Positions 2,840 to 54,255 of a stretch of DNA of 64,000 nucleotides are shown in pieces. The stretch comes from Microthyrium microscopicum (lineage: Eukaryota): NCBI GenBank assembly GCA_010405405.1, contig MU004234.1:1825275-1889274 (forward strand). Reading direction: 5' to 3'. Under the pieces are notes generated by a model. That model did not search any database and was not told the DNA's origin. It was given only the letters and a program-made list of their open reading frames with translations. Numbering within the stretch: the stretch's first letter is position 1; each line of letters opens with the position of its first letter. The translations under genes and the position numbers were made by a program.

Positions 2840-3824
2840 TGGGTTAAGTTTCTACTCCCCCCTCCCAGAGGCCCCCCCTATCCAGAGGCCCCCCCAGCAC
2901 CTCCTAGCCACTCCCGCCGTCAGCACATACCAAGTTAAAAGACGCCATAGTGTCACCACCAAATTGATTGATTGGCCACGTAGACAAGATAGCACATTTT
3001 GGTAAAGTAAGGAATTCAAGCATAAACCTAAGGCACCAGCGGACGCGTCTAGATACCAAACAAACCTAAAAATTAGCGACAGCGACGTCAGAGAGGTGCG
3101 CGCGCGCGTGAAGCACGTATGTGTAGGGGTAGGGAGCACCAGGGAACGGGATCCACGTAGAAACAGGCACAGGAATAGGTAGGGGAACAGGCGTGGGAGC
3201 AGGCGCAGGAACGGGAGCTCAAAAGACGTAATTAAAGGTGTTAAAGATGTTGAAGATATTAAAGATGTTAAGCTACCAAAACACGTCTTTAGAGGTGAAG
3301 GAGTAAACGCTAAGCCTTACCAAGCCTACTTATAATTGGTCGATATTGCTTATCGATCAGATTGATTAGATTAGATTGCCAAGGCTTAGCAGTGATCCTT
3401 CACCTGAAGACATGTTTTGGTAGCTCAACATCTTTAACATCTTCAACATCTTCAATCACGTCTTTTAAGCTCCCGTTCCTGCGCCTGTTCCCGCGCCTGT
3501 TCCCCTACCTGTTCCTATGCCTATTCCTACGTAGATCCCGTTCCCTAGTGCTCCCTACCCCTACACATACGTGCTTTGCGCGCGCGCGCGTCTCTAACGT
3601 CGCTGTCGCTAATTTTCAGGTTTGTTTGGTATCTAGACGCGTCCTTCAAGGGCCGCTGGTGCCTTAGGTTTGTTAGGCAATTCCGTCCTAAGCTTAGGCT
3701 TGTCATTAATTTAGGTGGCGGCGCCACCTAACTTAGTAACAGGTCTAAGCTTAGGACGGATTTGGGCGAGGGGGGGCCTCTAGATAGGGGGGGCCTCTGG
3801 GAGGGGGGAGTGGAAACTGCTCCT
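2840..3824. mobile_element. Non-autonomous foldback (Mutator-like?) element with TIRs, long internal inverted arms and an 11-bp flanking direct repeat
   Basis: TIR 2847-2895 (agtttctactcccccctcccagaggcccccccta...) is the reverse complement of 3770-3818. Internal arms 3024-3318 and 3381-3671 are reverse complements, differing mostly by C/T and G/A. Direct repeat gagtagttcct lies at 2829-2839 and 3825-3835. Confidence 0.8.
3682..3760. repeat. 79-bp near-perfect palindrome nested in the foldback element
   Basis: tccgtcctaagcttag...ttaggtggcg-g-cgccacctaa...ctaagcttaggacgga, centred on 3721. Confidence 0.9.
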
Positions 3825-14742: not shown

Positions 14743-15549
14743 TTACTGGGAAGATCCACCAGAAATTGTGATGATTTGTCCGTTGACCCATCCACCATCG
14801 TCGCTGGCGAGGAAAGCGACCACGCGTGCCACATCCTCTGGCTCAGCACAGCGGCCGAGTGGGCAGTTATCTGCCATCATCTTCTCGATAGTGGAGCCGG
14901 GAATATCTGGTGTGCCGCCGGGAATGTAGTGCCATGCGTTTTGAGTGAACATGTCGCTCTTGATGCCACCAGGTGCTACGCCGTTGACTGTGATGCCGCG
15001 GGCACCGAAATCAGTCGCGAATGCCTTGACGAAACCAATAACCGCCATCTTGCTGCCGTTGTATAGCGCATGGTTCTTAACACCAAGAAGCCCAGCTGCG
15101 ATACTGCTCATGAGGATCACACGTCCATCATTCTCGAGGTATTTGAACGCCGCTTGGCCAACGAAGAACTGTGCGCGGGTGTTGAGGTTAAAGACATGGT
15201 CGAATTTCTCTTCCGTGATATCTTCAGTCTTGTCCCAGCTTTCTGTGCCGCTGTTGCTCATGACAATGTTGATTTTGCCCAGTGCCTTCTTGGACTCGGT
15301 GAACAGGCGGTCGATTTCGGACACTTTGGAGACATCTGCTTGGATGGCGACGGCTTTGGCACCATTGTTGAAACCTTCGATGATCTTGACGACTTCGTTG
15401 GCTGGGCCTTCGGATGAGACGTAGTTGACGATGACGGAGCAGCCGCGCTTGCCGAGCTCGATGGCGCAGCCGCGGCCGATTCCGCGGCCGGCGCCGGTGA
15501 TGAGGGCGACTTTGCCTTCGAGGGAGGCGGTGGGGACTGCGAGAACCAT
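14743..15549 (-). CDS. arp2: 1,3,6,8-tetrahydroxynaphthalene reductase (DHN-melanin SDR, Arp2/4HNR-like), intronless
   Basis: TGAGRGIG, SNSG, FNLNTRAQFFVG, YNGSK (YxxxK) and APGGIKSDMFTQNAWHYIPGG, typical of naphthol reductases. Confidence 0.85.
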   Translation of the reverse strand: MVLAVPTASLEGKVALITGAGRGIGRGCAIELGKRGCSVIVNYVSSEGPANEVVKIIEGFNNGAKAVAIQADVSKVSEIDRLFTESKKALGKINIVMSNSGTESWDKTEDITEEKFDHVFNLNTRAQFFVGQAAFKYLENDGRVILMSSIAAGLLGVKNHALYNGSKMAVIGFVKAFATDFGARGITVNGVAPGGIKSDMFTQNAWHYIPGGTPDIPGSTIEKMMADNCPLGRCAEPEDVARVVAFLASDDGGWVNGQIITISGGSSQ

Positions 15550-17249
15550 GGTTTGTTTTTGGAGGTGGTTATGGAAGGGTGGTTAAGTGGTCTTGAGAGG
15601 GTTAATTAGCTACGTGAGTTCGATACAACCAACGACCATGAGCTGACTCTACATACAGTTGTATAGATGTCAATTGAGACAAGATAGCGAAGGTTCAGGA
15701 GAAGCAAATGATATTCGAAACCCCATCGCTGACAACCAGCCGCCTCCATTTATATACAGCGGGTCGGGTGGAGCCCAAGGCGGGGATCCGGCATACCAAC
15801 ACACGCAACGAAAATCATAATCCAATGGATAGCTTACCGTACCGACCAAGCTCTGCCGCGCCAACTTCATTTCTGCCGACCAGCCAAAACGCAGAGTGCA
15901 GACATTGCAGATGAACTGTTACGAGGTGGCCATAGTAGCTACACGAGAACGGTCGAGGGTGTTGATGAAGAGACGTGGGGAGCAAAGTGTGAGAAGTGTG
16001 TATATGTGCGGCAGTAAATGGTGGAGCGTGCGCTAGAGCTGTCAAAAGATGATTGCCGTTGAAACAATTGATGATGGGCATCCGGTCCGAAGCTGCAAGA
16101 GCTCCTGAAGCTACGATTTAATCGGGGCCGATCGTCGGCGATGTGGGTTTCAGCCGCATGCTAATTCTCTTGGAGTTTAGTTGCAAGGCTGGCAGGTCTT
16201 GTTGGCTGCTTCTCCGTGGTGGTTCTATTTCTAGCCTGCCTGATCGAGTTATTTTCAGCCTGATGGACGGATTAGAAAATTTATACTTGGGCGAACAATT
16301 CAGTTCTGGCTCAAATCAATTGAGATGTGTCAATCCAAATCCAGATTTGGACTCAAACTTGTTTTCGGAGGCAGAAACATATTTCGTTAGATGCAGATTT
16401 TCAAATCGAGCATATTCTGTTTCGCCTTGTGTCTGAGCCTTGTAGCAATAAGCCGTTCAAAATAGCTGAACTAATCCCCTTTTATTTTTCATCTTTCATT
16501 TGAAGTCCTGATTAATTGCGTGGAGCAGCAATTCTTTCTACGGAGAATTCTTTAGAAGACAGATGGAAAAAGTGTTTTGGCGTTCCCCGAGTAGTTCATG
16601 TACAAAGTTAGCGAAAATGGCTAAAATCATCAGGTTTACATGTGGTCTAGTTGTTCGCAGAAATTAGCACGAAGAAAGGGCAAAGCTATCATCGCTAGGG
16701 TCTTCTAAGGTCTAAATACCGGCTTACTAACAAAAGGTTTAGAAGCAAAGAGTTTGACCAGCTTTACCTCGAGTATTGAAATTTCCCAAAACGTAAGGCT
16801 ATAAGCCTAGGAGTAAAATCATCGATCTTACGAAAACCTAGGTAGTGCTTACGGGGAATAGACAGATGCCTAGTAGGTCCAGTACTTGACGAAGTCTTGT
16901 GCGCCCCTAACCTTGCGAGCAAATCCCACATAGCAAGAGGACGATTTCCGCCTGAGGACTGCATGAGCAGTCCTTTTTTTGAGTATCGGTGATTCGGATT
17001 TCATTGAAATGAGTATCTTTAATATCTGACCGTTTTTTCGAAGCGCATTATTCCAGTTTTTATTGCTCTTCGATTCGCTTCGTTGATTTGATTAACGTTT
17101 AAGGCACCTGAACATTGATCTGTTTGTGTTCCTTCAGATACGGTGGTTTTAAAAAGCATGTCTCTTGCCCAGATATCATCTTACTTGAGTATTTACCGTT
17201 CAAAGTCTTTTAGAAGCTTATGAACGCAATACCAAGATTGAATCGGTGT

Positions 17250-17267
17250 ACTTTTCAGCCAGCCAGT
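17250..17267. promoter_or_regulatory. 18-bp element acttttcagccagccagt, copy 1 (contains GGCTGA on the minus strand)
   Basis: An identical 18-mer lies at 20139-20156. This copy is ~470 bp upstream of the lactonase ATG. Confidence 0.45.
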
Positions 17268-17739
17268 AAGCGAAGTTGTCAACATGTCGTCGGCATATCC
17301 AGTATGGCATTGCTAGGGCTTAAGAAGCACATTCCATAGCGCACTCTCTGGGTGAAGTGAATACTGTACTTTCTGATGGAGATATCCAGTAGTTTTTACC
17401 CGAAAGAGCTACCGCTGACATTGATGAACTCAAGAATTTTCGTTCTCGGTCAAAGTCTGTGTTTCCTCGAAAATCAAATAATGAGCATATCACGGTCTCT
17501 AAAACAGCTTCAACAGTGGCTAGTGTCGCCACATCAGACTTGTCCGAAAGCCGACGTCCGTGCGGATATATATATGAATGGTACTTGGTCTATCCTCAAT
17601 TTTATACAACCTAACAAGTAGCTTCCATTGACGAAGAAATCTAAAGAAGCATCATGCCAACTTCACTCCTTCTGTTGACCAATTTTGGGAGCAACAAAAC
17701 CAACGATACTTTGCCTGATCCCCAGAACATGGAGTAAAG

Positions 17740-18968
17740 ATGCTGTTCTTATATCTCCTAATCCACAGCTTGGGGTTGGTGAAAGCAGCAAAGCATCAGC
17801 TGTTCACAAGCACATATGGAACACCATTTATATACACAGTGGAATTCGACGACGAGGCAAACACATTAAAGCTACTAGCCAACACGAGCGTACCCGCGGC
17901 GAGCCAATGGTTAGTGTTAAGTGTAAGTTCATAAGCCCTGTGCAGCAGACGTCAGTGGATTGACAGTATACTAGCATGATAAAAAGAACTTGTATGGAAC
18001 TTCAACCACAGACAAGAGAACAGAGTTTCTCAGTTATGCGGTGACGAGTCCAACATCCATTAAATACAAGACCACAACTGTTGCGGGTACTTGTGCCGCC
18101 AGGACAATCCATGTGGACGCCTTGCAAGTACCACCATACACAGTATATGGCGTACCATGGTATGGAGCAGACAACAACTGCGGTGGCGTTATGGCAGTTG
18201 ATGATCAGGGAGTTATTGTCAAATCCGTCCAGAACTATACTTACTCTCCGGGCTCTGCCCTCCACGGTCTTGCATTTCATCCGGAAGGCACTTTCATGTA
18301 TTCGGCAGACTTGAAGGGCAAAAAGCTATGGACTCATGCAATCGATCGAGCTACTGGAAAGCTGACGCTCGTCACGAGTGACAAGAGTCATGGAGAACCA
18401 AGGCATGTCAGCGTGCATCCCAAAGGCAAATATGCATACGCTATGCTGGAAGATACTAATGAGGTCTCTGTGTATTCTATCGACAGCACAACTGGCGCCG
18501 CCAAGTATACTGGAAAATCACATTCTGTTCTTTCATCCAGTGAGATAACCAACGTCTTGTAAAAGTATCACTATAGGTCACTAATACTGCATAGAAGATA
18601 AGACTGCGCACAGAGCGGCTACAGTGCGACTATCTGCAAGCGGTAACATGCTCTACGCTACGACTCGCGGCTCAAGAACTCCCGGTGCAAAAGGCTCCGT
18701 GTCTGCTTTCACTTTGAAAGCAGATGGTAGCATTGCGAGTCAAGATTTTATCATTCCGACCACAACTGGTGGCGGAGGTGCTAATCAAGTGGCACCAACT
18801 ATCTTCGATGACAACTATTTTGCTATCATTGACAGTGGGACTGGTTTCATTGAAATGTGGAAGAGGAACAAGGACGGAGCTGGTGCTGCCGTCATTGCCC
18901 ACTTGGATTTGGCGGATAGCACAAGGCCTGGCAATGGTTGCTGTTCCAACGCCGTGTGGTATTCTTAG
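17740..18968 (+). CDS. Secreted 7-bladed beta-propeller lactonase (carboxy-cis,cis-muconate cyclase / aldonolactonase family), 3 exons
   Basis: Signal-peptide-like MLFLYLLIHSLGLVKA; SALHGLAFHPEGTFMYSADL; EPRHVSVHPKGKYAY; TTTGGGGANQVAP; ends CCSNAVWYS. Introns at about 17922-17974 and 18540-18593. Confidence 0.85.
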
Positions 18969-20138
18969 ATATAAGGACATTCGAATTGAAATTAGGGAAG
19001 GAGCATCAAGAAATACACTTATATCCTACTGAAGCCTCCTTTGCATACAATATTGTTATGAATGATGAATCTGCCAGCCAGGCCTAGTAGCTACAAGCAC
19101 AACAGGTCATTCATAAATCGATGAAAAAAGTAGTTGCATGGCTCAGAAGGGCGACATAAGGAACCATCATAATCTAATATTTGCCGATCGTTCATCTGCC
19201 ACTGGGTAGCTTGAAGGAAGTCTTTTTCAAAGTAATGAGGTACCATTGCGCGTCTTTTACGTGTATGCTAGCAAGACGTACTCACAGTAATACATTCCTA
19301 CAGACACGCGTATATATAGCGTTGGATAGATTACTCATAGTTCCACGGTACATGTGTATTGGACCCTTGCTTAACAGTAGGCTCAGATCCAGCCTATGAA
19401 GTTACACGTTCTAGAAGATTTCGAAATCTAGGGGAGTAATGCTAGCGAAATTGGAAAAGCGATCGGTCATTGGCAGTGTGGACGCTTTTCATATCTCTAG
19501 CTAGGGTAGGGATTCACAACTTCATATAGTTCTAATCTAATTTATCACAGAACCCTACCACACCAAGACTGTCACCTTGGGAAGGGCCCGCGGTCCATAA
19601 GATTCGTCAAGATATATTGGATTGTCCATCTTTTATCTGTCGGATCTGGCTTAGGCCTATGAGCTACACTAGTATTTACCGAGATCTACATGATTAGCTG
19701 CAGCCAATATCCGATTGGATTGTCAATGTCTTTTGACTGTTCTTTGACTTACAAGAACATGTGTGTCAGGTGCAACAGAAAGACATTCTCTTTGGCCCAG
19801 TGACGCGGCCAAAGCAATGCTAATCCTAGTTATTTCAAGTCTCTCGACACTTCATGGCTTTATGCTTCTATAATGTTGTTTGCTATTCAATGTGAATGCA
19901 GTTCTACTGAGTTCAGCAAGGGTGCAGAGACAGGAACTAAACTTTGACATGTACATTTTCTGGATCAGTGGCAAATGAATACTTTGAACGAAATCCAGCC
20001 AATCAACAAAAGAAAAACATAATATCTATGTATTCGATGTAAAGTTATTCAATGCCTCAAGTCTATCTACTATCTAGAACACATCATATATGGTTGAAAT
20101 CGGCATGTCGGCGTGATTTCCACAGGGCTAAAACTACG

Positions 20139-20156
20139 ACTTTTCAGCCAGCCAGT
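20139..20156. promoter_or_regulatory. 18-bp element acttttcagccagccagt, copy 2, with neighbouring GGCTAA sites
   Basis: Identical to 17250-17267. GGCTAA at ~20126 and TTAGCC at ~20189. Lies ~335 bp upstream of ATG 20492. Confidence 0.45.
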
Positions 20157-20491
20157 CACTGAACAATATTATGCAAAGTAAGCACCTATTAGCCTTAATG
20201 ATATATATTGAATATTCGGCTATGTCCCGGCTTGGTAGGTACATATTGCTACTTCACTTTATTCCATACCATCTTTACTATCGCCCATGGCCGCAAGACC
20301 AATTTAAATGGAATTCTCACAAAACCGTAGCCCGATGACCCCGTGGTTCTCGAGGGCCATGCGGAGATCTATAATACTACAGTATCTTTATAGCGCGGCT
20401 GTCATCTTCTTTGCTTGAAGTTGCTAACCAACTTGGACACACTCTTTTCAACCATTTCACTTCACCAAGAGAACATTCGCTCCCTATCACA

Positions 20492-21627
20492 ATGAAGTTC
20501 GAACTTGCTGCTGCGTTGCTCAGCATCGCCTCGGTGCAGGCCACTGCTATTCCAGCTGCCTTCCCAGAGCCTCAGCTTACTGCCGCTGCTCTCAATGTAC
20601 CCCGAATGATCACACCAAAGTACCGAACTACCGCGAAGCGTGCCATTATCCGATATCCCGCCTTCACATTGGCCGCCAAAGGAGTACGCGAACAAACCAT
20701 TCTCTCTAAGAACCCCATAAACTAACAAAAATGTAGAAAGGAAGTGGACTCTCCATGGACCCCAAAGGCCAAGCCGGTATTTTGAGAGCTGGTGCAGGCA
20801 TGTGCAGCTCATGCACTCTTTTGTCTGCCCATTACCGTCTGGTTCATCCTGATGGCAAGGAAGCCACTGCCCACGAGGGTGTCTATATCCATCACATGAC
20901 TTCTTTCTTGAGCCCCAAGAACTCTTCGAACCCAATTGGCGGTCTTTCTTCCGGTGGCGGATCAATTGGAGGAGCAGCTTACTTTATCGATCGTGGTGAG
21001 GATTCTGGTCAGACCGATACCATCTTCACCTCCCATGATGGTACATTCAACTCCGGTTACCACATTGTCTCCAAGCCCTCAATTACCGTCTCATATGATT
21101 TCGTCAACTACGAAGATAGCCCCAGACAGCTACACCTCGAGCTCGAGTATGAGTACATGGATGGTATTGTCGGACAAGACGCTGGACACACACTCAAGTC
21201 TGTTGCTGGATCCCCAAAGACCTCCGGAAAATCCACCGGATCTATGACCGTTAGCCGAGCCACCACCATCATGTGGGCTCGTGGCCATTTGCACGCCGGT
21301 GGAGACAGCATGACCCTAAAAGTCAACGGTGTTGTCAAGTGCGTTTCCAAGCCAACCTACGATTCTGAGGGCGTCATCACCACCATGTCAATCTGCCCAG
21401 AGTCAATCCCACTCAAGGCGAGAGACGCAATCACCATCGAGTCTGTGTATGACACTACCAAGCATCCTCTGTAAGTGACCCTCAAAACCGTTACCCTGAC
21501 CTGTCGAAATCACGATACTAATAACCTGAATAGCCGCAAGGCCACAGATGGCTCCGGTCACGGTGCACATGGTGTTCTAGGTGGTTCCGATGTTATGGGC
21601 ATGTTCGCAATGTCATATACCACATAG
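20492..21627 (+). CDS. Secreted protein with copper type II monooxygenase (PHM/DBH/SURNod19)-like motifs, 3 exons
   Basis: Signal peptide MKFELAAALLSIASVQA; YIHH (20890-20895); GHLHAGG (21286-21294); DVMG near the C-terminus (ATG 21595). Introns 20684-20736 and 21471-21533; stop at 21625-21627. Confidence 0.7.
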
Positions 21628-22029
21628 GAGATGGATTTCTAAAACTTAAATACGCATGTAGCGTTGTATTTTGTAAATATATACAGTCAAATGACTTTTT
21701 CTTTCGCAGTAGCGATCTCTTCCATTGGCGGAGTTAGTTTCTCAACGAAATAGTGTGGCATGAAGACGATACGTTCTAGGCAGTGGTGTTTCGTGACGAA
21801 ACTTTCGCCGTCATGGGCACTTGAGAGTCGGGCGTCATGATGTAGTATGTGTAATGGTCTCGAATACGAGAAGACGTTCACTTTTAAACATTACTAGCTA
21901 AGGCGAACAAGAAACCATTAGGATGAGGCTCTCCCAAAGCATGTAAGCTCTGGAAACCTCATTACCATCGAAGCATATATCATTCCAACACTATCGGAAA
22001 AAATAGTAGAAGGGCAAAGGTCGAGATCT

Positions 22030-24951
22030 TCACCAGCCCGACTTTGTGACAGACACAGCAGCACTAGTCTTAGATGCATCATGAGGCGGAACGGACGACA
22101 CAACCGGCTTTGAGTATGATGGCGCCGAGGGCTCTGTTGAATGAGGCGGCGGCACGTATGCTGACGATTGCGGTGATGGTACATATTGACTTGAATGAGC
22201 TGGTGGTTCAACCCATTTACTGCTAGAATGCTGAGGTTGAGATGCCCAAGAATTGCCTGAAGGCTCAGGCGGAGGGCCTTCCCAGCCATTGCTCGGATAC
22301 TGTGACTGAGGTCCCCAGGCCTCGCTTGAATGTTGGGGAGGAGAGGATCCCCAACCGTTGCTTTGATACTGTGAATGAGAACCCCAAGCATCGCTCGAGT
22401 ACTGGCCTGGTATGTTCCATGTACCTCCTGAGTACTTAGGTGATCCCCAGCCAGTTGGGGTGGGACTTTCATAAATTGTGGGTTTTGAGTGTGTGTCCCA
22501 GTTCTTGGGCGACGTTGTGCTTGATGTGCTTGAAGTGGTGGAAGAGCTCGTGGGAGAAGAGCTTGTAGTGGACGAGCTTTTAGTTGAGCTTGAAGTGGTC
22601 GAGGAGCTCGTACTTGAAGAGCTTGTGGTAGAAGAGCTTGTTGTAGAAGAGCTCGTGGTGGAAGAGCTGGTAGTAGAAGAGCTGGTAGTAGAAGAGCTGG
22701 TAGTAGAAGAGCTGGTAGTAGAAGAGCTNNNNNNNNNNNNNNNNNNNNNNNNNNNNNNNNNNNNNNNNNNNNNNNNNNNNNNNNNNNNNNNNNNNNNNNN
22801 NNNNNNNNNNNNNNNNNNGTAGTAGAAGAGCTGGTAGTAGAAGAGCTGGTAGTAGAAGAGCTGGTAGTGGCGGAGCTGGTAGTAGACGTGCTTGTGGTGG
22901 AAGAGCTCGTGGTTGACGAGCTTGTAGCTGTGCTTGAGGTGGTTGAAGAGCTTGTGGTTGACGAGCTTGTTGTGCTTGAGGTACTTGACGAAGTTGTAGA
23001 GCTACTACTGATCGAGGTTGTGCTAGTCGAGCTAGAATATGTCGTCGACGATTTGGAAGACGGTGTTGATGTGGACGAGCTTGTAGTGGAAGATAAGCGA
23101 GTTCCGGGAGTACTTGTCGCGGAACTGGACGACGACGACGTAATTAGGCTAGAAGATATTGGTGTAGAAGATATTGGTGTAGATGATATTGGTGTAGAAG
23201 ATATTGGTGTAGATGATATTGGTGTAGAAGATACTGAGATAGAAGATACTGAGATAGAAGATACTGAGATAGAAGACACTAGGGTAGAAGAAGGGGCCGT
23301 TGAGGAGCTTCGGACAGAAGATGCTGGAGTCAAAGAAATAGAAGGTTTCATCGTGGTAGTTGTGATTACTGGAGGCGTTACGAAACTCGTAAAAGAGGAA
23401 AGGAAAGATGTGGCACTGTTTGGCATCGTCGAGGTTTTAGGTGTAGCAGACGTCGTAGTTGGGCAAGTCCCGACTCCCGATGTGGGCGCTGCCAGGACTG
23501 GAGGAGCGAATAAGAGCTATATTCGATTAGTTTAGGAGTGACCTGAGAAGGAAGTATATGATAGGGTAGCACGAAGTCCTTTAGGCTAAAGATCGCTACT
23601 GAGAAGCGTGCACTTACTCGATCAATCACATGAACGACGCCGTTTTTGATGATACTGTCCGATTTGATGACCTAAATTCAAGTCAGTCATGGTCTAATGA
23701 TTAAAGAAGGAGGGACGCAGACCTTTGCTCCATTGATGAATATGTCACCTTGGACATCAGTGGTGACATCTATGATTGAGCCGTCTTGAGCCCGAGCTTG
23801 CAGTCCTTCTACAAGGACGGGAGAATATGCCGTGAAGCCAACTATGATATGGGCTCGAAGTAGACGAGCAATGTCCAAATTACCCTGTGAGCATTGCAAA
23901 GCTGTCTTGATAGCCGAATCACTTGGTACGAACACCGTTATTTCAGGAATGTTGTCCAAATACATGAATGCATCAGAGATGTATGAAGAGAAGATTGAAG
24001 TATTGGTTGTGGATGCGAGGGTTGCTGAGAGCGTCTGCGGTCTAGTAAAGAAGCTTGAAACGTTTCGTTAGCTCAATGTTCCTTCAGGGACTATAGTAAA
24101 GTTGACGTACTCGCTGACAATATGTATGATTCCACCGTCGAAGGGGATATCCGCTTTTATAATGGTAACAACGTCTCCGAATCCAGAGTATATTTTGACT
24201 GGATCTGTTGCGTTACAGAGGCCACCAGATTCTCGTGCTCCTGGATATCATTAGTATGCAAAGCTTCAATTTTCGATGTTCAAGCCGGCCATCTTCTGTT
24301 GGATAATCCTGTGTATCATGCTCATGTTTGCAAAGGGTACAACATAGCATTATCAAACATAAGACCTGAACTATGACTGGGATGAAAAATCTCACCATGA
24401 GTTGTGGCAACTTGACCCCTCCCACTGAGAATAGCGTCTTGATAGTCATATGTTGGAATGACTGAGCCCGTGAATGACCTTAGGAGCGCCGAGGGTAATA
24501 CATGGGGAGAAATCTGGTACAAGAAGCTCGGATTGGTTGCCAGTTGACGCCTAACCCAACTACTTCCAGCCTCCGTATCTCTTTTGAATTTAGAGCTCAA
24601 AGTCTGGGGAACAAACACAGTTCCCGCATCATTAGCTGGAGTCTGTCCTCCAGAGGCTCCCGACTCCCCAGTCATTGGAGCAGCTGTAATAGATTAGTGT
24701 CTACTCATGATATGGAGTGGTTTGCTAGCCAACGGTCGTATCTGGCTTGTTAAACCGTTCAAAACCTTCGATTTAATTATGCGATATCAAAGTTTCAACA
24801 AGCGATCAAAGACTTCTGCATAATAATACTCACCCCACTGGTCACCACCAACTGAAGTCACTGCAGAGACCGCAGACCCAGCATCTCCTCCATGAATAAT
24901 CCATATGTGTACCGATATCAACGATAGTAGCGTATAAAGACGTGAAAACAT
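22030..24951 (-). CDS. Secreted fasciclin (two FAS1 domains) protein with a long Ser/Thr-repeat stalk and Trp-repeat tail, ~6 exons, spanning an assembly gap
   Basis: Signal peptide MFSRLYTLLSLISVHIWIIHG; TVFVP, ADIPFDGGIIHIVS, ITVFVPSDSAI and SDSIIKNGVVHVIDR (FAS1 H1/H2 motifs), joined by canonical introns; then SSTTS repeats; stop TGA at 22030-22032. Confidence 0.8.
22540..23280 (-). repeat. 15-bp coding tandem repeats (SSTTS, ISSTP, ISVSS) with a 90-N assembly gap at 22729-22818
   Basis: gaagagctggtagta arrays flank the N-run; gaagatattggtgta and gaagatactgagata arrays lie at about 23150-23280. Confidence 0.9.
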
Positions 24952-39916: not shown

Positions 39917-42900
39917 CTAGATGTAGAACATGTCGTTCCTCAAGCGCTCATGCACTTCAATGTCCGCCTGCAGAACCCTCTCCCCACTGCCACCCGTCAC
40001 TGAAGTGCCGGCTGGCGTGTCAAACCGACCTGACATGTATACGCGCGTTCGGTCACACACCATGTCCGCATACTTAGCAGGCGGGCAGACGCGCACTGCT
40101 TTCGTCGCGCGTCCAAACGCATAACTCATGCCGTGAGTCATATCTTCGAGCACGTCCGCTACGCTGGTGTAGCCTGGGGGAAGTGCCGTCTTGCCCTTAG
40201 CATAGTGGGCGCGCAGGACCTCATCGCAGAGGATCATGTAGTGTGCGGGACGAGCGGTGCCTTGAAGCGCAGAGTGGGGTTGGAGATAGAAGTCCCAGGC
40301 ACGGGCGTCAGTAATGCCGCGATCGACGACGGTGCCGGGGCGACAGTTACCGTTACGGTCTGCGTCCTGGAGACTGGTGGGATAAAAGCGGGTATGGTGG
40401 CGCTTTGCGACGATGAGGAGCGTCATGCGCGGAAGACCGGCTTTGGTGTCATTGGCGGGATATAGTCCTTTACACGGTTCACGGAGTTGGGGAAGTTCAG
40501 TGTTCAGGGCCATTTCGTATTGACCTTCAGAAACACCATCGCGGTAGATGATGATATTGGAAGGATACTTTTTATGCTTAGAGTACCAGAGCATAAGATG
40601 GCGCTTGAACATATCTCCCAGGTTATCGACCTGCTCTTTGCGAGTTTCTGATTGAACACGAACAGTCGCAGGCCATTGCCCAAGGTTCTTGTCAATTGTT
40701 GCGACCATGGCAGCGATGGACGGTCCTTTGGAACCAGGGGCCGGATGGGTGACATCCAAGCCAACTATCATGGTCTCGCCCTGGTCGATGAGCGAGAATG
40801 AGGCATTGCGCGCGATCTGGTTCGTGCCGCCTAGCTTCAAGTTGAACTTCAGTGCTATGTTGGCCATGTACATGGGCTGACCCCTATCTTCAAAGAGTTT
40901 CGGACTACAGCAGATGGTGTGAATGCCGTACTTAACGTCGCCAAGTCGCTTGATAATTGGGTACACCGGATGGTTAGCCATTGGGAGAGCGATGAGAATT
41001 ACTCTGAGCTTTCCAGCAGCACCTTTGAGCGTGTTTTCAAGAGCTGCTGTGTCGTCGGGGTTACTCATGTGGACTACTTTTCCTGGCAAGGGTGCCAAGG
41101 CAGTGACTCCTGATGCCCTGAGCGAGTTGTGCATCGCCTTCATGGTGTTCCCTAAACGTTCCATTTGGCCTTCGACATCACGCTGGTTCTGGCGCGTCAC
41201 AAGCAGGACATACGACCAGGCTTTCATATCCTGAGCTTGGTAGAAAGAAATGTCTCTCATGTTCCAAGAGCCGTCGGCTGGCTGAATTGACTTGTTCTTT
41301 CCGTACGTGACCTTGGGCACTGGTAGCACGCGACCGCGGACCGTGATCAGACCATCTGCAATTTTGATCTGGTATTTTTCCTAACAGAGTGTTAGTCCAA
41401 CCGTAAATCATTGTGAAACTCATTCTTACTAGAAGTTTATTTTTCGCAGATAGTCCCGTGAGGTCGTAGCCCTGCTCCACAATGGAGCGAGCATTCTCAA
41501 TAGGTCGTCGGACAGCAAATTTGATCATGCCAGCAGTTTGGTTGGGGTCGAGCTGTCTTGGATATGCCTGACCTGGGAGGACAACGCAATACTCAGCCGG
41601 CATGTAGTTTGGATTCGTTTTGTTGCCGACATTGACGACAGGAAGAGCGGTGTTGACTTGTTTGCCATGTTCTACCGTTGTTAGCTCCTGATACGGCAGA
41701 GGAGCTGCTTGACTGACCTTGCTTGAAGTATTCCTGAACCGTGATATAACGACCACCTTGGGATGGGCCTTCTGCCTGAGGTCCACCTTTTGGCTTTTTC
41801 TTCGCACCCGCAGGCTTGATGTCCGTACTGGGTCCCTTGTCTTCAAGCCAGAAAGACACCTCATGGGGACCAGCGCCATGGCGCTTAACCTTGGGCGGAT
41901 TGGGGTTGGGTGGTGACTTCTTGTTGGAGGAGCGGCCATCATCGACGTTGGCCAAGCCACATATACCCTTCGCTCGCACGACCACCTGGCCAGCTTTGTT
42001 CTTTCGCTCTTTTAGATGGGTCAGTTTCACGCGAACGCGAAACAAGAACCGAGCCAGTCCGTGCATATTGGCAGTACCGTAATCACCCCAATAGGACTTC
42101 ATGAGCTCGGGCAGTGGCCCGCCAGGGTAGAAAGCTGCACTGCTCACGTTGACATTGACCAACATGCGGGAAGTCGCAAGTCGAGCACTGGTGTAGTATC
42201 CGCGGAGGGCCAATAAGCCGCCATTGAGATAAAGCTGTTGCAGATCGGCTCCGACAAACGGAAAGACCTTTCGTGGTCCAATTGTAGCCACGTTTGCGTT
42301 AGATCGGCAAAAGTGGTTGAAGAATATGTTGAGAGGTTGGAGAAGGGTTAGCTGATCGTCGTAGCTAGCGTCAGATGCTGTGGAAAAGACATATTTGAGC
42401 ATATCTTCAAATTTTAGCTCATTGGTGTATGTGACCGAAACGTTGTAGATCTGTGCGTTCGGTCGAGCTTCATCTTCTCCCTCGTCTCGGAATGTAATTG
42501 GGATTGTGGTAAGGATTCGTTCGTCCTCAAGAGGCACTGGGACCAGAAGTGTTGAACGATAGTCCGTCACCAGTTTATCCTTGACAGAAGCGAGCTGCAG
42601 CGTATCGAATAATGTATCTAGAAGAAGTCGAAAGACTTGAGTGACCTTGCGCTTCGGCATTTCGTTCGGTTCAATTTTGATGGCATATCGATATAGGACC
42701 AGTTTAGGAGCCAGCTTCATCTCGAAGTAATTGGCCCAAAGTGTTTGTGCTTGGCCTCGAGAGCCAAATCCAGGACGCATTGGGTATTTCGCAACAACAC
42801 CTAGCGAACCAAGTCCAAGGCTGTCCTTCGCACCTTTGAGAATGGCATCCTCAGCCTTGGTAACGGTGAGATCAGGTTCTGGTATACCACTTTTTGGGCT

Positions 42901-43180
42901 TCGTTGACGTTAGACAGACTGCCCCAATGTATGATTGCGATAGGAATACTCACCTCCAAACAGCGACTGGTCCTCCTCGACCACCACCCCCTCCACGACC
43001 ACCACGAAAACCACCACGGTCTCCTCCACGATCGTAGCCTCCACGACCGCCTCGACCTCCACCGAAGTCACCACGAGGACCTCCACCACGACCACCGCCT
43101 CTTCCTCTGTCAAACCCACCTCCGCCTCGACCACCTCGGAATTCGCCTCCTCGGCCACCGCGATCACCGCGGTAAGACAT
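39917..43180 (-). CDS. qde-2: Argonaute (QDE-2-like) with an RGG-rich N-terminus, 4 exons
   Basis: RPGFGSRGQAQTLWANYF; LRGYYTSARLATSRMLVNVNVS (ArgoL1); PAZ ITVQEYF...NYMPAEYC; PIWI NIALKFNLKLGGTN, GLDVTHP, YRDGVSEGQY, KRHHTRF, GTARPAHY, PAKYADMVCDR. Confidence 0.95.
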
Positions 43181-50956: not shown

Positions 50957-51442
50957 ACTTGGCACGAGCGCCTGAAGTGACTAGACCCGCTCTTGTGCAG
51001 GTGGACCCTGCGTCTCTTAACATTTTCTACTCCATCCTGCGAAGGATGATGCAAACTCTCCACTGATCAGAAGGTTAATTTCTCTCCATTCCTGGTGTCT
51101 GGATTCCGGAAGCACGAGTGGGGTGCGCGGTTGGGACTAGCATCCGGTTGCCTGGATCCGTTGCTTGCTACTCGATCTTGTATCTTCAGATCATTTGGAC
51201 AAGGATGGCAAAAATTCTTCTTCCAGCTTCACTTTCAATATGACAGTACTTGTTATTGGATGGTATGATGGACGGAAGGAAAATGATAGTGTGCTTGGGT
51301 TGAGGTGATCGCGTGTTGTCGGAAGCTGCACCAGCATATTTGCTCACGATAGCGAATTTAATTCTTAAGATTGCTTCAGGTAAAACGTACAACCAGAACA
51401 CTTCTTTTTCAACCCAATTTCTGACTTTTCAGCTTAGTCGTA

Positions 51443-51916
51443 CAGTGCTATCAGGGTTCTCTTGTCCCCCCCCTAAAAACATGAAATGGCGCTTCAGGGC
51501 CTGATTGGAGGGCGAGAAGATCTGAAGAGTGCGTTAGTATGCAAATTTGTAAGCGCAGCCCCTTAGATCAATCTTACCAACTCCATCTTCTTCCCAAATC
51601 ACAATATTATCTGTCCTGAAGCCAAATCTTTATCGAATATCTTGCTTTTTAGTGTTTTAATGCATCTTCAAGTTAGTAATGAGTAGTTATTCAATATCAG
51701 GATTGATGTCTTACTTGGTTACTATAGCTTCAAAAGCGACCCAAGATGTGGTATTTAGGAAGGATAGTTTTTAGGGGCTGCTAATTGGCTGCGACCGGGA
51801 GGCGCTCTACAAATTTGCACTGTAACGCCCATCTCGTCCCGTACATCTACCCAATTACGGCGTGTTCCCCAAACTTATTAAATCCAGGGGGGGACAAGAG
51901 AACCCTGATAGCACTG
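51443..51916. mobile_element. Tc1/mariner-type MITE, 474 bp, ~31-bp TIRs, TA target-site duplication
   Basis: ta|cagtgctatcagggttctcttgtcccccccct ... agggggggacaagagaaccctgatagcactg|ta; no transposase ORF. Confidence 0.88.
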
Positions 51917-54255
51917 TACCTTCCGTGTTCGGCGTAAATAGTCCCATGAGATGATTCGTATTCAAAAATATGACGCATCAATTGTAATTGAATCGATGAT
52001 GATCCCGACTACTGAAGACTTAAGGCCCCTTTCAGAACTCAAGATCAAGCTAGGAGCTCCGTTCCGATAACGATGTCGCTGCTCATACGATCAGACTTAA
52101 TATGTAGGCATCATCTTCAGATGCAAGATCAGAGATCGCCGTCGTCCCTTTTGGTCCAGATAGGTTCGTTCATATTTAGTTACCACTAATAATTGCCTTT
52201 CTAAAGAGCCACTTACTTTTGCCTAGGGACGGTGCCCGTCAGGCGGCTTGGCTGCCTAAAGCTAAGTGCGAACCATAACTGTTTTGGAATTTAAAGTCTT
52301 AGGATCAATTCGTGCTTCAAAACCTCCAGACAAGTCTCCAATATCATTATTTAAAGCACTGACATTCCCATTCTTCGTTCCATGCATTACCCAAAACTCA
52401 ATATCAAAGCTATGATCCCAGTTTAAGTTGCAGGAAACCGGACCGGCTGCACTCCGGACCAGTATACCGCTGTCAGTGCATTCAGCTGGCCACAACAGAC
52501 ACTACGGAGTCACTCCGAAGGTTGTTTGTTGCGAAAACAACCCGTGCAACGTCGATATCTGCTCTGCTGCTACCCAAGTGGCTGCCCGGAGTACTTGGCG
52601 TTCACGAAGCCTCACTATTCGGAAATGAGAATACTGACAGAATCAAAGGATCAGTTATGCTTCATAAGGTGGCGCACGTTCGATTTCGCAGAGACTTAGC
52701 TGACAGAAGGGAAACTGCCAGAAAGTCACAGTTCTCTACCTTTTCAAGGTTAAACCCGTAGCAAGTGGCTTTTATTCCCGAATCTCACTTTGTAGAGGTG
52801 GTTAAAGAACTGATAAGGACTCAAGGAGTGAGGCTTTACTTGCGAATCTGATTAAGCTAAGGCTTATTTGGGCCTAACGCCAGTATGGCACGCTACGGCC
52901 ATGTGGGAGAACCACTATTTCGCGGTATTATTAGTCGCCCTTCCCCTATTTGAACTAGTTCCATACTTTTAGAATTCTTGGATACCCACGTAGGATTCTC
53001 TCGTGCGTTCTGAACTTCTCATGAACATGTATCAACATTGGAATATTATATCACCAAACTATAGTGCAAGCAATCAAATCGAAGTAAGTAGCATCATCTT
53101 TCAGCAGTTGTCAGTGGCAAAGTCTATGCTTGGACAAACAAGTATCTCCTCCAGCTTCAAGTGTGATATGTCCTATATTGGACTCAAGCCAGTGGTTCAT
53201 ACCGGTATCTATACTGACGATGTCCCAAATTCCCAACACGCCAACGGATTTCTGCATGTACTGGAGCAAGTATCAAAGCAAGATCTGCAAACTTTACCTG
53301 CACGCCGTTACTTCATCTCCTATAAAATTAATTCCTAAGTTCCTAACTACTCGAAATGATTACCAAACTCACAGACCTGCTTCCTCCAAAATGAAGTGTA
53401 TCTGGAGCATCGCTTTTGTCTTCCTACTTCTTTCATGCCGATACCAGCTCATTGGCGGCATAGCTGCATTGGCTGTTCTCCTTAACGAGATTTGTCGTGA
53501 TGAAGCGCGGAAGACTTCAGTTGCTATTTCGTCAGTGAGGCATATGCGAGTTGGCTGTAATTCAGCGGTTCTACAAGTGAGATACAGCCAGCCATCTGGA
53601 GTAAGACAGGATACCTCTCTGTGATCGGACTATATGTATACCACGTCAATGACCAAATCGTCGCAATGGTAGTCATTGAAGCAATGAACAAGTGACAACA
53701 GCTACTTCCAAGCTACGAGATCAATCCCCATTTCTCGGAATGAACAAATATGCAAAACAAACCTATATTTCCCAGCTCAGATCGTGCAATGCAACAGGGA
53801 GCAATATCCATGCAAATATACCAAGAGTCTGGGAAGCAGCAATTATACAAAATTGAAATATTTTATTCATCCCCATGAATAACAAGCGGGCCGGCGGCGG
53901 GCAAGGAAGATCATCAGGGGTTTCAAAGTCCCTTGGGGGTGGATCCGATGCAATCCTTGACCGGCTGAGAGATGCTGGGCAGATGGATGCTGTACCTCGT
54001 ACGATCTTGAGATGAACAAGATCCACTCGGAAGCACGAGGATGTTGCTTTTTCTACGCGCATGTTACGAAAAAAATACCTGTAAGGTAGTGTTTGGGTGT
54101 ACGATGATTACCTTATTGTTCCGATCATGACCATCGGCACGCCTGACGGTACGTAAGAGCTTTGTAGGAGGAAATTATGTGTTAATCATACAATTCTAAA
54201 CAGACTGGGGTATCGATACATAGCTATAAATCTCACGCGCATGTCTTTCATCATC

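What the first reader, a model, noticed from the sequence alone, without database searches (positions are those of the whole stretch)
17250..21627. Secreted lactonase and secreted copper-monooxygenase-like gene: a tandem pair sharing an identical promoter element
Seen: two neighbouring same-strand genes, both with signal peptides, each preceded 335-470 bp upstream by the same 18-mer acttttcagccagccagt (17250, 20139). Known: GGCTRA-type motifs are bound by XlnR/Xyr1, and secreted beta-propeller lactonases of this family can hydrolyse aldonolactones made during oxidative polysaccharide decay. Inference: an undescribed co-regulated extracellular module in which a PHM-like copper enzyme oxidises a substrate and the lactonase opens the product. 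One chance 18-bp match somewhere in 64 kb is roughly a few-percent event, so its position in two adjacent promoters is suggestive but not proof.
Basis: partly seen in the sequence, partly recalled or inferred. Interest (0 to 1): 0.72.

Follow-up and report, generated by a model that had tools for sequence, protein, structure and literature searches.

The report
Fungal gene pair sharing 18-base word
Two neighbouring secreted-protein genes of a fungus share an identical 18-letter word upstream, but about one such match is expected per genome by chance and nothing else ties the genes together; the better lead is that one of them belongs to a large, unstudied family shaped like animal copper enzymes.

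Summary
The 18-mer lies at 17250 and 20139, nowhere else exactly in the 37-Mb genome, upstream of two spliced, probably secreted genes. The co-regulated module is not supported. An empirical null from 864 kb gives about 0.7 such non-coding matches per genome. The word is absent from 45 paralogue loci, and GGCTGA alone occurs in 12 of 45 paralogue promoters. None of 41 Nod19 paralogue loci holds a similar lactonase gene. Gene A is a signal-peptide paralogue of carboxymuconate cyclase; the genome has a separate cytosolic cyclase and a separate gluconolactonase-type gene. Gene B is one of at least 47 Nod19 (PF07712) loci, a family already reported as expanded and of unknown function in Venturia. 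A model of an 86% identical relative has the PHM/dopamine-hydroxylase fold. It keeps the His-His-Met site, but the other site has only two conserved His plus probably Asp/Glu. This scan noted the PHM-like Nod19 reading before on another genome (e1-7703590). Synteny and co-expression could not be tested. Verdict: ordinary members of known families, with a probably incidental shared word.

The parts
17250..17267 (+). 18-mer copy 1; its reverse strand holds one GGCTGA; 472 nt upstream of gene A's ATG, in the intergenic region shared with a divergent reductase gene
17565..17579 (+). TATA-like tract of gene A, near-identical to that of gene B; local alignment score 23 against a null median of 22, so not significant
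17740..17922 (+). Gene A exon 1: hydrophobic N-terminal extension of about 18 residues that the cytosolic cyclase 1JOF lacks, then the start of the propeller
17975..18539 (+). Gene A exon 2 (PF10282); encodes H158, R204, E220, which align with H148, R196, E212 of 1JOF
18595..18968 (+). Gene A exon 3 with R274 (aligns with R274 of 1JOF), a C-terminal Cys-Cys and the stop; product 373 aa, matching public protein P0235
20139..20156 (+). 18-mer copy 2; 335 nt upstream of gene B's ATG and 67 nt upstream of the first base of the RNA-type contig
20200..20213 (+). TATA-like tract of gene B
20492..20683 (+). Gene B exon 1: signal-peptide-like N-terminus and first strands of domain 1. The following predicted intron (20684-20736) has GT..AG ends and is absent from relatives' proteins, but was not skipped in the one RNA-type contig
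20737..21470 (+). Gene B exon 2 (Nod19/PF07712): H116 and H117 (20890, 20893), D185 (21097), H248 and H250 (21286, 21292)
21534..21627 (+). Gene B exon 3 with M330 (21595) and the stop; full product 339 aa
14743..15549 (-). Divergent neighbour: hydroxynaphthalene-reductase-like short-chain dehydrogenase; shares the intergenic region that holds copy 1; no evidence that it belongs to the pair

Best explanation
Two independently transcribed secreted-protein genes sit side by side, and the identical 18-mer is a coincidence of the size that a fungal genome holds about once; it carries no joint function. Gene B is a member of the expanded Nod19 family. It most likely works like PHM or dopamine beta-hydroxylase outside the cell: copper bound by H248, H250 and M330 activates oxygen, and a second site built from H116, H117 and probably D185 relays an electron or binds substrate, so that a small organic or peptide substrate is hydroxylated. 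Gene A is a secreted seven-bladed propeller of the carboxymuconate-cyclase subfamily that keeps the His-Arg-Glu-Arg acid-base set; it most likely closes or opens a carboxylated lactone ring, for example on aromatic ring-cleavage products in plant litter. Shown: gene structures, splicing of three introns, family membership, predicted fold of a close relative, residue conservation, the null counts. Inferred: secretion, copper binding, all catalysis, substrates, and the D185 role.
For: Null of about 0.7 non-coding and about 5 total isolated direct matches of 18 nt or more per genome; other promoter pairs reach 16 nt in 3 of 1,081 pairs. No site within 3 mismatches in 60 fetched 10-kb stretches, 45 of them paralogue loci. 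Motif 8-mers in 6 of 45 paralogue promoters against 48 of 150 background kilobases; 10-mers in 0 of 45 against 8 of 150. Similarity stops at the word: with it masked, the best scores are 23 and 29 against a null 99th percentile of 33. No cyclase-like gene in 41 of 41 Nod19 paralogue loci, no Nod19 gene in 4 of 4 cyclase-like loci. Separate RNA contigs for the two genes. Fold: pLDDT 87.9, Foldseek best hit PHM at E 1.2e-7, Z 13.6 with rmsd 5.0 over 231 residues. Ligand conservation. Cyclase alignment.
Against: The word is unique in the genome, is the only isolated 18-mer among the non-AT-rich 776.6 kb (the sample includes this window by selection), is the top of 1,081 promoter pairs, and lies upstream of both ATGs in the same orientation. 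Requiring promoter position and two secreted products would lower the chance figure well below 0.7; I did not measure by how much. Both genes are spliced in the same RNA-type run. Two 13-base halves of the word occur 5 and 6 times against 2 and 1 for the reversed controls, although 2 of each are these copies and the counts are small. No relative's DNA could be examined.
Confidence: 0.55

Rival explanations
1. The word is a real shared binding site for a transcription factor (XlnR on the GGCTGA core, or an unknown factor), so both genes respond to one signal, without their products acting in one reaction chain.
For: Unique, same orientation, within 500 nt of both ATGs. GGCTGA is a documented XlnR site in Aspergillus oryzae (PMC6323846, abstract and passages). 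Promoter B also has 2 GGCTAA and promoter A 1 GGCTAG within 1 kb. Both genes are spliced in one RNA-type run.
Against: A 6-base core does not explain 18 identical bases. GGCTGA is in 12 of 45, GGCTAA in 15 of 45 and GGCTAG in 20 of 45 paralogue promoters. The same paper says XlnR specificity is relatively low and links response to GGCTGA plus GGCTAA together; promoter A has no GGCTAA within 1 kb. Of the 6 other genomic sites at up to 2 mismatches, the 1-mismatch site and at least two more lie inside long ORFs, so no wider regulon appears. The distance to the TATA-like tract differs: about 300 against 44 nt.
Confidence: 0.2
2. The two copies are a scar of a local rearrangement. The 2,889-nt unit that holds all of gene A is bounded by the direct repeat, as if gene A had been inserted or duplicated into the promoter of gene B with an 18-base duplication.
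For: The repeat brackets gene A completely. Gene B has named relatives in Tothia, Venturia, Trichodelitschia and Aulographum at 46-70% identity, whereas none of the 15 relatives returned for gene A is labelled with those genera (a weak, word-based search).
Against: Perfect identity implies a recent event, yet the closest relatives of gene A are only 59-60% identical over the full length. No second copy of either intergenic region exists in the genome. Gene A's GC3 of 0.47 lies inside the 0.46-0.62 range of window genes, and RIP indices near the copies are not raised. Gene A keeps introns, so it is not a retrocopy.
Confidence: 0.17
3. The first reader's module: a co-regulated extracellular two-step pathway in which the Nod19 copper enzyme oxidises a substrate and the propeller opens or closes the lactone product.
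For: Both products look secreted and keep catalytic-type residues. Secreted aldonolactonases are co-regulated with cellulases in other fungi (PMC3948607, passages). Animal PHM is partnered by a propeller lyase (recalled, no call).
Against: Gene A belongs with carboxymuconate cyclase, and the genome has another gluconolactonase-type gene. None of 41 Nod19 paralogue loci has such a partner. With at least 47 Nod19 loci and 6 lactonase loci, chance adjacency for some lactonase is about 5% if the genome has about 12,000 genes (gene number assumed, not counted). The catalytic Glu is Gln in gene A's two closest relatives. PHM-type chemistry is C-H hydroxylation (recalled), which does not directly give aldonolactones.
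Confidence: 0.08

Closest known systems
Nod19 family (Pfam PF07712, SURNod19), as reported for Venturia inaequalis (PMC9632046)
   Same: 85 of 95 aligned relatives of gene B match PF07712 at E up to 0.05. Secreted and expanded: 39 entries in that paper's protein list (supplement), at least 47 loci here. Function stated as unknown.
   Different: Gene B's own exon 2 scores 15.7 bits, below the 25-bit cut-off. The paper's supplement gives the model a 'double-stranded beta-helix' label and its main text has no hit for monooxygenase or PNGase, so the PHM likeness is not drawn there.
Peptidylglycine alpha-hydroxylating monooxygenase (PHM; PDB 1YIP, 1SDW) and dopamine beta-hydroxylase (4ZEL)
   Same: Two-domain fold; His-His pair in domain 1; His-x-His and a C-terminal Met in domain 2.
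   Different: Only 11-14% identity and rmsd 5.0 at best; no sequence-level match. No third conserved His in domain 1; an Asp/Glu (87 of 95) probably takes its place. No partner lyase domain. No activity known.
[quoted passage not shown]
   Same: Full-length alignment at E 3.4e-54 with His, Arg, Glu and Arg aligned.
   Different: Gene A has an N-terminal hydrophobic extension, 4 Cys and 2 N-glycosylation sequons. The genome has a separate gene without signal peptide (L085) whose aligned pieces read like 1JOF and that is the likely pathway enzyme.
Secreted fungal aldonolactonases and bacterial PpgL/6-phosphogluconolactonases (PF10282)
   Same: Same Pfam family and propeller; secreted.
   Different: Much weaker match to gene A (PpgL E 6.5e-7). 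Another locus (L137) is the best Pfam scorer and is barely alignable to gene A. The fungal aldonolactonase sequences themselves were not compared; the original paper is not held.
XlnR/Xyr1 binding site GGCT(A/G)A (PMC6323846)
   Same: One GGCTGA on the reverse strand of each copy.
   Different: Explains 6 of 18 bases; common in paralogue promoters; no binding data for this fungus.

Membership tests
Nod19 (PF07712) | Match to the Pfam model or to members that pass it | tested here: met
   Exon 2 alone E 0.0066, under the cut-off; the identical public protein P0001 and 84 more of 95 aligned relatives match; the Atlas's best feature hits are clusters carrying PF07712, scores 0.92-0.94
PHM/DBH copper monooxygenases | Two-domain PHM/PNGase F fold | tested here: met
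   Model of P0002 (86% identical relative, not the window's own protein): Foldseek E 1.2e-7; Z 13.6, rmsd 5.0, 231 aligned
PHM/DBH copper monooxygenases | Catalytic copper site His, His, Met in domain 2 (ligand set recalled) | tested here: met
   By sequence: H248 93 of 95, H250 94 of 95, M330 75 of 95 (18 rows have a gap there). Geometry could not be inspected
PHM/DBH copper monooxygenases | Electron-transfer copper site of three His in domain 1 (ligand set recalled) | tested here: not met
   H116 and H117 are 95 of 95, but no third His of domain 1 reaches 90% conservation; Asp/Glu at column 184 in 87 of 95. That this column matches PHM's third His is my inference from strand order and a recalled pattern
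PHM/DBH copper monooxygenases | Copper- and reductant-dependent hydroxylation with O2 | not testable with these tools
   Needs purified protein
Carboxymuconate cyclase (CMLE) | His148, Arg196, Glu212, Arg274 equivalents (their catalytic role is recalled) | tested here: met
   H158, R204, E220, R274 align; Glu is Gln in the two closest relatives
Carboxymuconate cyclase (CMLE) | Cytosolic pathway orthologue without signal peptide | tested here: not met
   Gene A has an N-terminal hydrophobic extension; L085 encodes the form without one
Secreted aldonolactonase | Closer to gluconolactonase-type propellers than to CMLE | tested here: inconclusive
   Solved structures favour CMLE (E 3.4e-54 against 6.5e-7 for PpgL), but the characterised fungal aldonolactonases were not available for direct comparison
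Secreted aldonolactonase | Hydrolysis of gluconolactone or cellobionolactone | not testable with these tools
   Needs an assay
XlnR regulon | GGCTRA core in the promoter | tested here: met
   One GGCTGA in each copy, but also in 12 of 45 paralogue promoters
XlnR regulon | XlnR-dependent induction and binding | not testable with these tools
   One RNA-type run kept as contigs, which cannot rank expression
Conserved gene pair or cluster | Adjacent orthologues in related genomes | tested here: inconclusive
   Two metagenome scans confirmed no locus; no related fungal genome could be read; paralogues are not paired

The most novel reading that the evidence does not exclude
Fungal Nod19 proteins are an unrecognised class of secreted PHM-fold copper oxygenases with a His-His-Asp/Glu second site, and here one of them has been coupled, through a shared 18-base control element, to a secreted cyclase-type propeller. 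Together they would form an extracellular hydroxylate-then-cyclise-or-cleave pathway for litter aromatics or peptides, echoing the PHM-plus-propeller logic of animal amidating enzymes.
Probability: 0.07. Interest if true: 0.78.

Novelty: new member of a known kind. Interest (0 to 1): 0.3.

Why it matters
The pair itself matters little unless the word proves conserved. The lasting lead is gene B's family: dozens of secreted paralogues per genome in this group of fungi, listed as non-enzymatic effector candidates of unknown function in the apple scab fungus, yet folding like PHM and keeping five of six copper ligands. If they bind copper and use oxygen, they are a new secreted oxygenase class beside the lytic polysaccharide monooxygenases, and the question of what Nod19 proteins do becomes testable with one purified protein. 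I estimate 0.6 that the family binds copper and is catalytic (inference from fold and ligands only). The scan has noted this reading before, so this window adds a second case and the Asp/Glu detail.

Tried and rejected
Metagenome scans with the gene B alignment (73 pattern matches, none confirmed) and the gene A alignment (285, none confirmed) gave no loci, so synteny and motif conservation are untested. The look-up of accession numbers for a synteny check could not be made. No RNA holder was listed on record; one run guessed as RNA did show spliced contigs; contig depth was not used. No cover between 19076 and 20179 in that run is not taken as evidence. Repeat origin rejected: both intergenic regions are single-copy and show no RIP signal near the copies. 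RNA or hairpin reading rejected: no Rfam match in 15500-22000; 4 of 4 folds no better than shuffles. A family-wide Nod19 promoter motif related to the word was not found among 38 promoters; top words were mostly AT-rich (6 of 45 automatic start picks were dropped as doubtful). A first null that kept AT-rich tracts gave 32-38 per genome and was discarded as inflated. Sequence searches of solved structures with gene B profiles found nothing meaningful. No complex prediction was run, as no binding is claimed. Paper searches: 'SURNod19'+'fungal' gave 2 plant papers; 'stress up-regulated Nod 19'+'copper' 6 plant papers; 'Nod 19'+'Venturia'+'secreted' none; a Venturia/PHM search gave 1 unrelated listing; the 20 listed of 42 hits had no 'peptidylglycine'; PMC9816061 main text has no PHM or monooxygenase hit (supplements not seen). 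'GGCTRA' found no paper. These searches cover open-licence papers only.
Full report
Observation. The 18-mer is at 17250 and 20139 on the + strand, with nothing else within 3 mismatches in the window. The 37.1-Mb genome holds exactly these 2 copies and 8 sites at up to 2 mismatches; the single 1-mismatch site lies inside a long ORF. The copies end 472 and 335 nt before the start codons at 17740 and 20492. Public proteins identical to the products carry the label Microthyrium microscopicum.

Gene structures. Gene A has exons 17740-17922, 17975-18539 and 18595-18968 (373 aa). Gene B has exons 20492-20683, 20737-21470 and 21534-21627 (339 aa). One run guessed to be RNA gave two separate contigs that skip both introns of gene A and the second intron of gene B. 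The first intron of gene B was not skipped in that contig, and the public model starts at an internal Met without signal peptide (P0001). Full-length relatives read straight across this junction, so I take the spliced, secreted form as the main product; this is inferred. Contigs cannot rank expression.

Gene A. It belongs to PF10282. Its best solved relative is Neurospora carboxymuconate cyclase at E 3.4e-54, with four His/Arg/Glu/Arg positions aligned; PpgL scores only 6.5e-7. That these four residues are catalytic is recalled. Gene A adds about 18 hydrophobic N-terminal residues, 4 Cys and 2 sequons. The genome has 6 lactonase loci (7 matches). One lacks a signal peptide and reads like the pathway enzyme (L085); that enzyme is needed for protocatechuate use in Aspergillus niger (PMC10406623, passages). 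Another (L137) scores best on the Pfam model, has a hydrophobic N-terminus and barely aligns to gene A; it is the better aldonolactonase candidate, by inference. Secreted aldonolactonases under cellulase regulation are described in PMC3948607 and PMC4647334 (passages); the original paper was not held. In gene A's two closest relatives (59-60% identity) the Glu is Gln.

Gene B. It is a Nod19 protein: 85 of 95 aligned relatives match PF07712, and the Atlas agrees. The family is large here: 51 exon matches that I grouped into 42 loci, 2 more found in fetched loci and 3 more places in the family search, so at least 47; some may be pseudogenes. Venturia inaequalis has 39 listed members, function unknown (PMC9632046, passages and supplement hits). 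An AlphaFold model of P0002 (86% identical; pLDDT 87.9) matches PHM and dopamine beta-hydroxylase first in both searches (E 1.2e-7; Z 13.6, rmsd 5.0, 231 residues). Across 95 sequences H116 and H117 are invariant, H248 is kept in 93, H250 in 94 and M330 in 75 (18 gaps). No third conserved His exists in domain 1. An Asp/Glu on the strand at 178-187 of the model is kept in 87 of 95 and is my candidate for the third ligand; I could not view coordinates, and the PHM ligand set is recalled. So gene B works like PHM by fold and five ligands, but it fails one defining feature and is not filed as a PHM.

Is the word more than chance? I counted isolated exact direct repeats 0.5-6 kb apart in 864 kb of this genome (45 paralogue loci, two contiguous blocks, the window). 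With AT-rich tracts masked and both copies outside long ORFs, the counts for 11 to 18 nt were 118, 40, 6, 3, 0, 0, 0, 1. The fit gives 0.016 at 18 or more in the sample and about 0.7 per genome; without the non-coding condition, about 5. Over half of the sample is in 10-kb pieces, which undercounts long distances. An unmasked version gave 32-38 and was discarded. Among 1,081 pairs of upstream kilobases this pair is the longest, but 3 pairs reach 16 and 3 reach 15 (about 6 of the 45 automatic start picks were doubtful). The match is therefore a roughly 1-in-1,000 event per window and a once-per-genome event for a scan that reads every window. Promoter position and two secreted products make it rarer than that by a factor I did not measure, which is why I leave 45% for non-chance readings.

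Does the word behave like a control element? No site within 3 mismatches occurs in 60 fetched 10-kb stretches. Its sub-words are not enriched in 45 paralogue promoters (the background includes coding DNA), and de novo counts in 38 Nod19 promoters gave nothing related. GGCTGA is a documented XlnR site (PMC6323846, abstract and passages) but occurs in 12 of 45 paralogue promoters; promoter A lacks GGCTAA within 1 kb. Outside the word the promoters share only a TATA-like tract and an inverted 16-of-17 match, scores 23 and 29 against a null 95th percentile of 27 and 99th of 33. Two 13-base halves occur 5 and 6 times against 2 and 1 for controls, a small excess that includes these two copies. The intergenic DNA is single-copy and not RIP-marked near the word, does not fold and has no Rfam match.

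Is the pairing conserved? Within the genome, no: 0 of 41 Nod19 paralogue loci hold a cyclase-like gene and 0 of 4 cyclase-like loci hold a Nod19 gene, in 10-kb stretches reaching about 6 kb upstream and 2.5 kb downstream. Across species it is untested: both metagenome scans confirmed nothing. Gene B has named relatives in four related genera, while none of 15 relatives of gene A carries those names; that search is weak evidence by its own note.

Verdict. Chance word beside two ordinary family members, 0.55; shared factor site without a joint pathway, 0.20; insertion or duplication scar, 0.17; coupled module, 0.08. The finding as framed is of low interest. The Nod19 family's PHM-like fold and altered second site are the lead worth following; I found no paper that draws the link in the searches listed under Tried and rejected, which cover open-licence papers only, and supplements other than those of PMC9632046 were not seen. 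Interest 0.30; new members of known kinds.

Noticed in passing
window 20684-20736: The predicted first intron of gene B is retained in the RNA-type contig while the second is spliced. Retention gives a 77-aa peptide and leaves an internal Met at 20755, where the public 269-aa model starts without signal peptide. It could be incomplete splicing or a switch between secreted and internal forms.
   Followed up: partly
G000, at least 47 loci on many contigs: Large scattered expansion of secreted Nod19/PHM-fold genes; 33 of 41 paralogue loci show the His-His motif by a simple pattern search. Two loci (L081, L083) hold two members each.
   Followed up: partly
gene B family, position 307 of P0002: A further His is kept in 92 of 95 sequences in domain 2, besides the presumed copper ligands; role unknown.
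   Followed up: no
window 14743-15549 (-): Hydroxynaphthalene-reductase-like gene (best solved match 1JA9, E 5.4e-85), divergent from gene A; a melanin- or polyketide-type reductase with no polyketide synthase seen among the window's long ORFs that were scanned.
   Followed up: partly
window 21918-24479 (-): Fasciclin-domain gene with a long Ser/Thr tandem repeat (15-nt unit) and an assembly gap of N; the RNA contig of gene B runs on beyond 22000 into this convergent gene.
   Followed up: no
window 39917-42909 (-): Argonaute gene (Piwi, Mid, linker and N domains).
   Followed up: no
window 2854-3783 and 51440-51919: Two inverted-repeat elements: a long imperfect palindrome next to the AT-rich window start, and a 33-base perfect inverted pair 447 nt apart; both look like small transposon relics.
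   Followed up: no
L086, L087, L088 (G000 C10, C3, C14): Three more cyclase-like propeller genes, apparently secreted; in L086 and L087 the His that aligns with the catalytic one is replaced, and L086 and L088 have long C-terminal extensions.
   Followed up: partly
homologue list of gene B: Many close relatives come from contigs of 900-1,400 bases that hold the complete spliced protein, which suggests that this subfamily is often seen as transcripts in environmental data; habitats were not examined.
   Followed up: no
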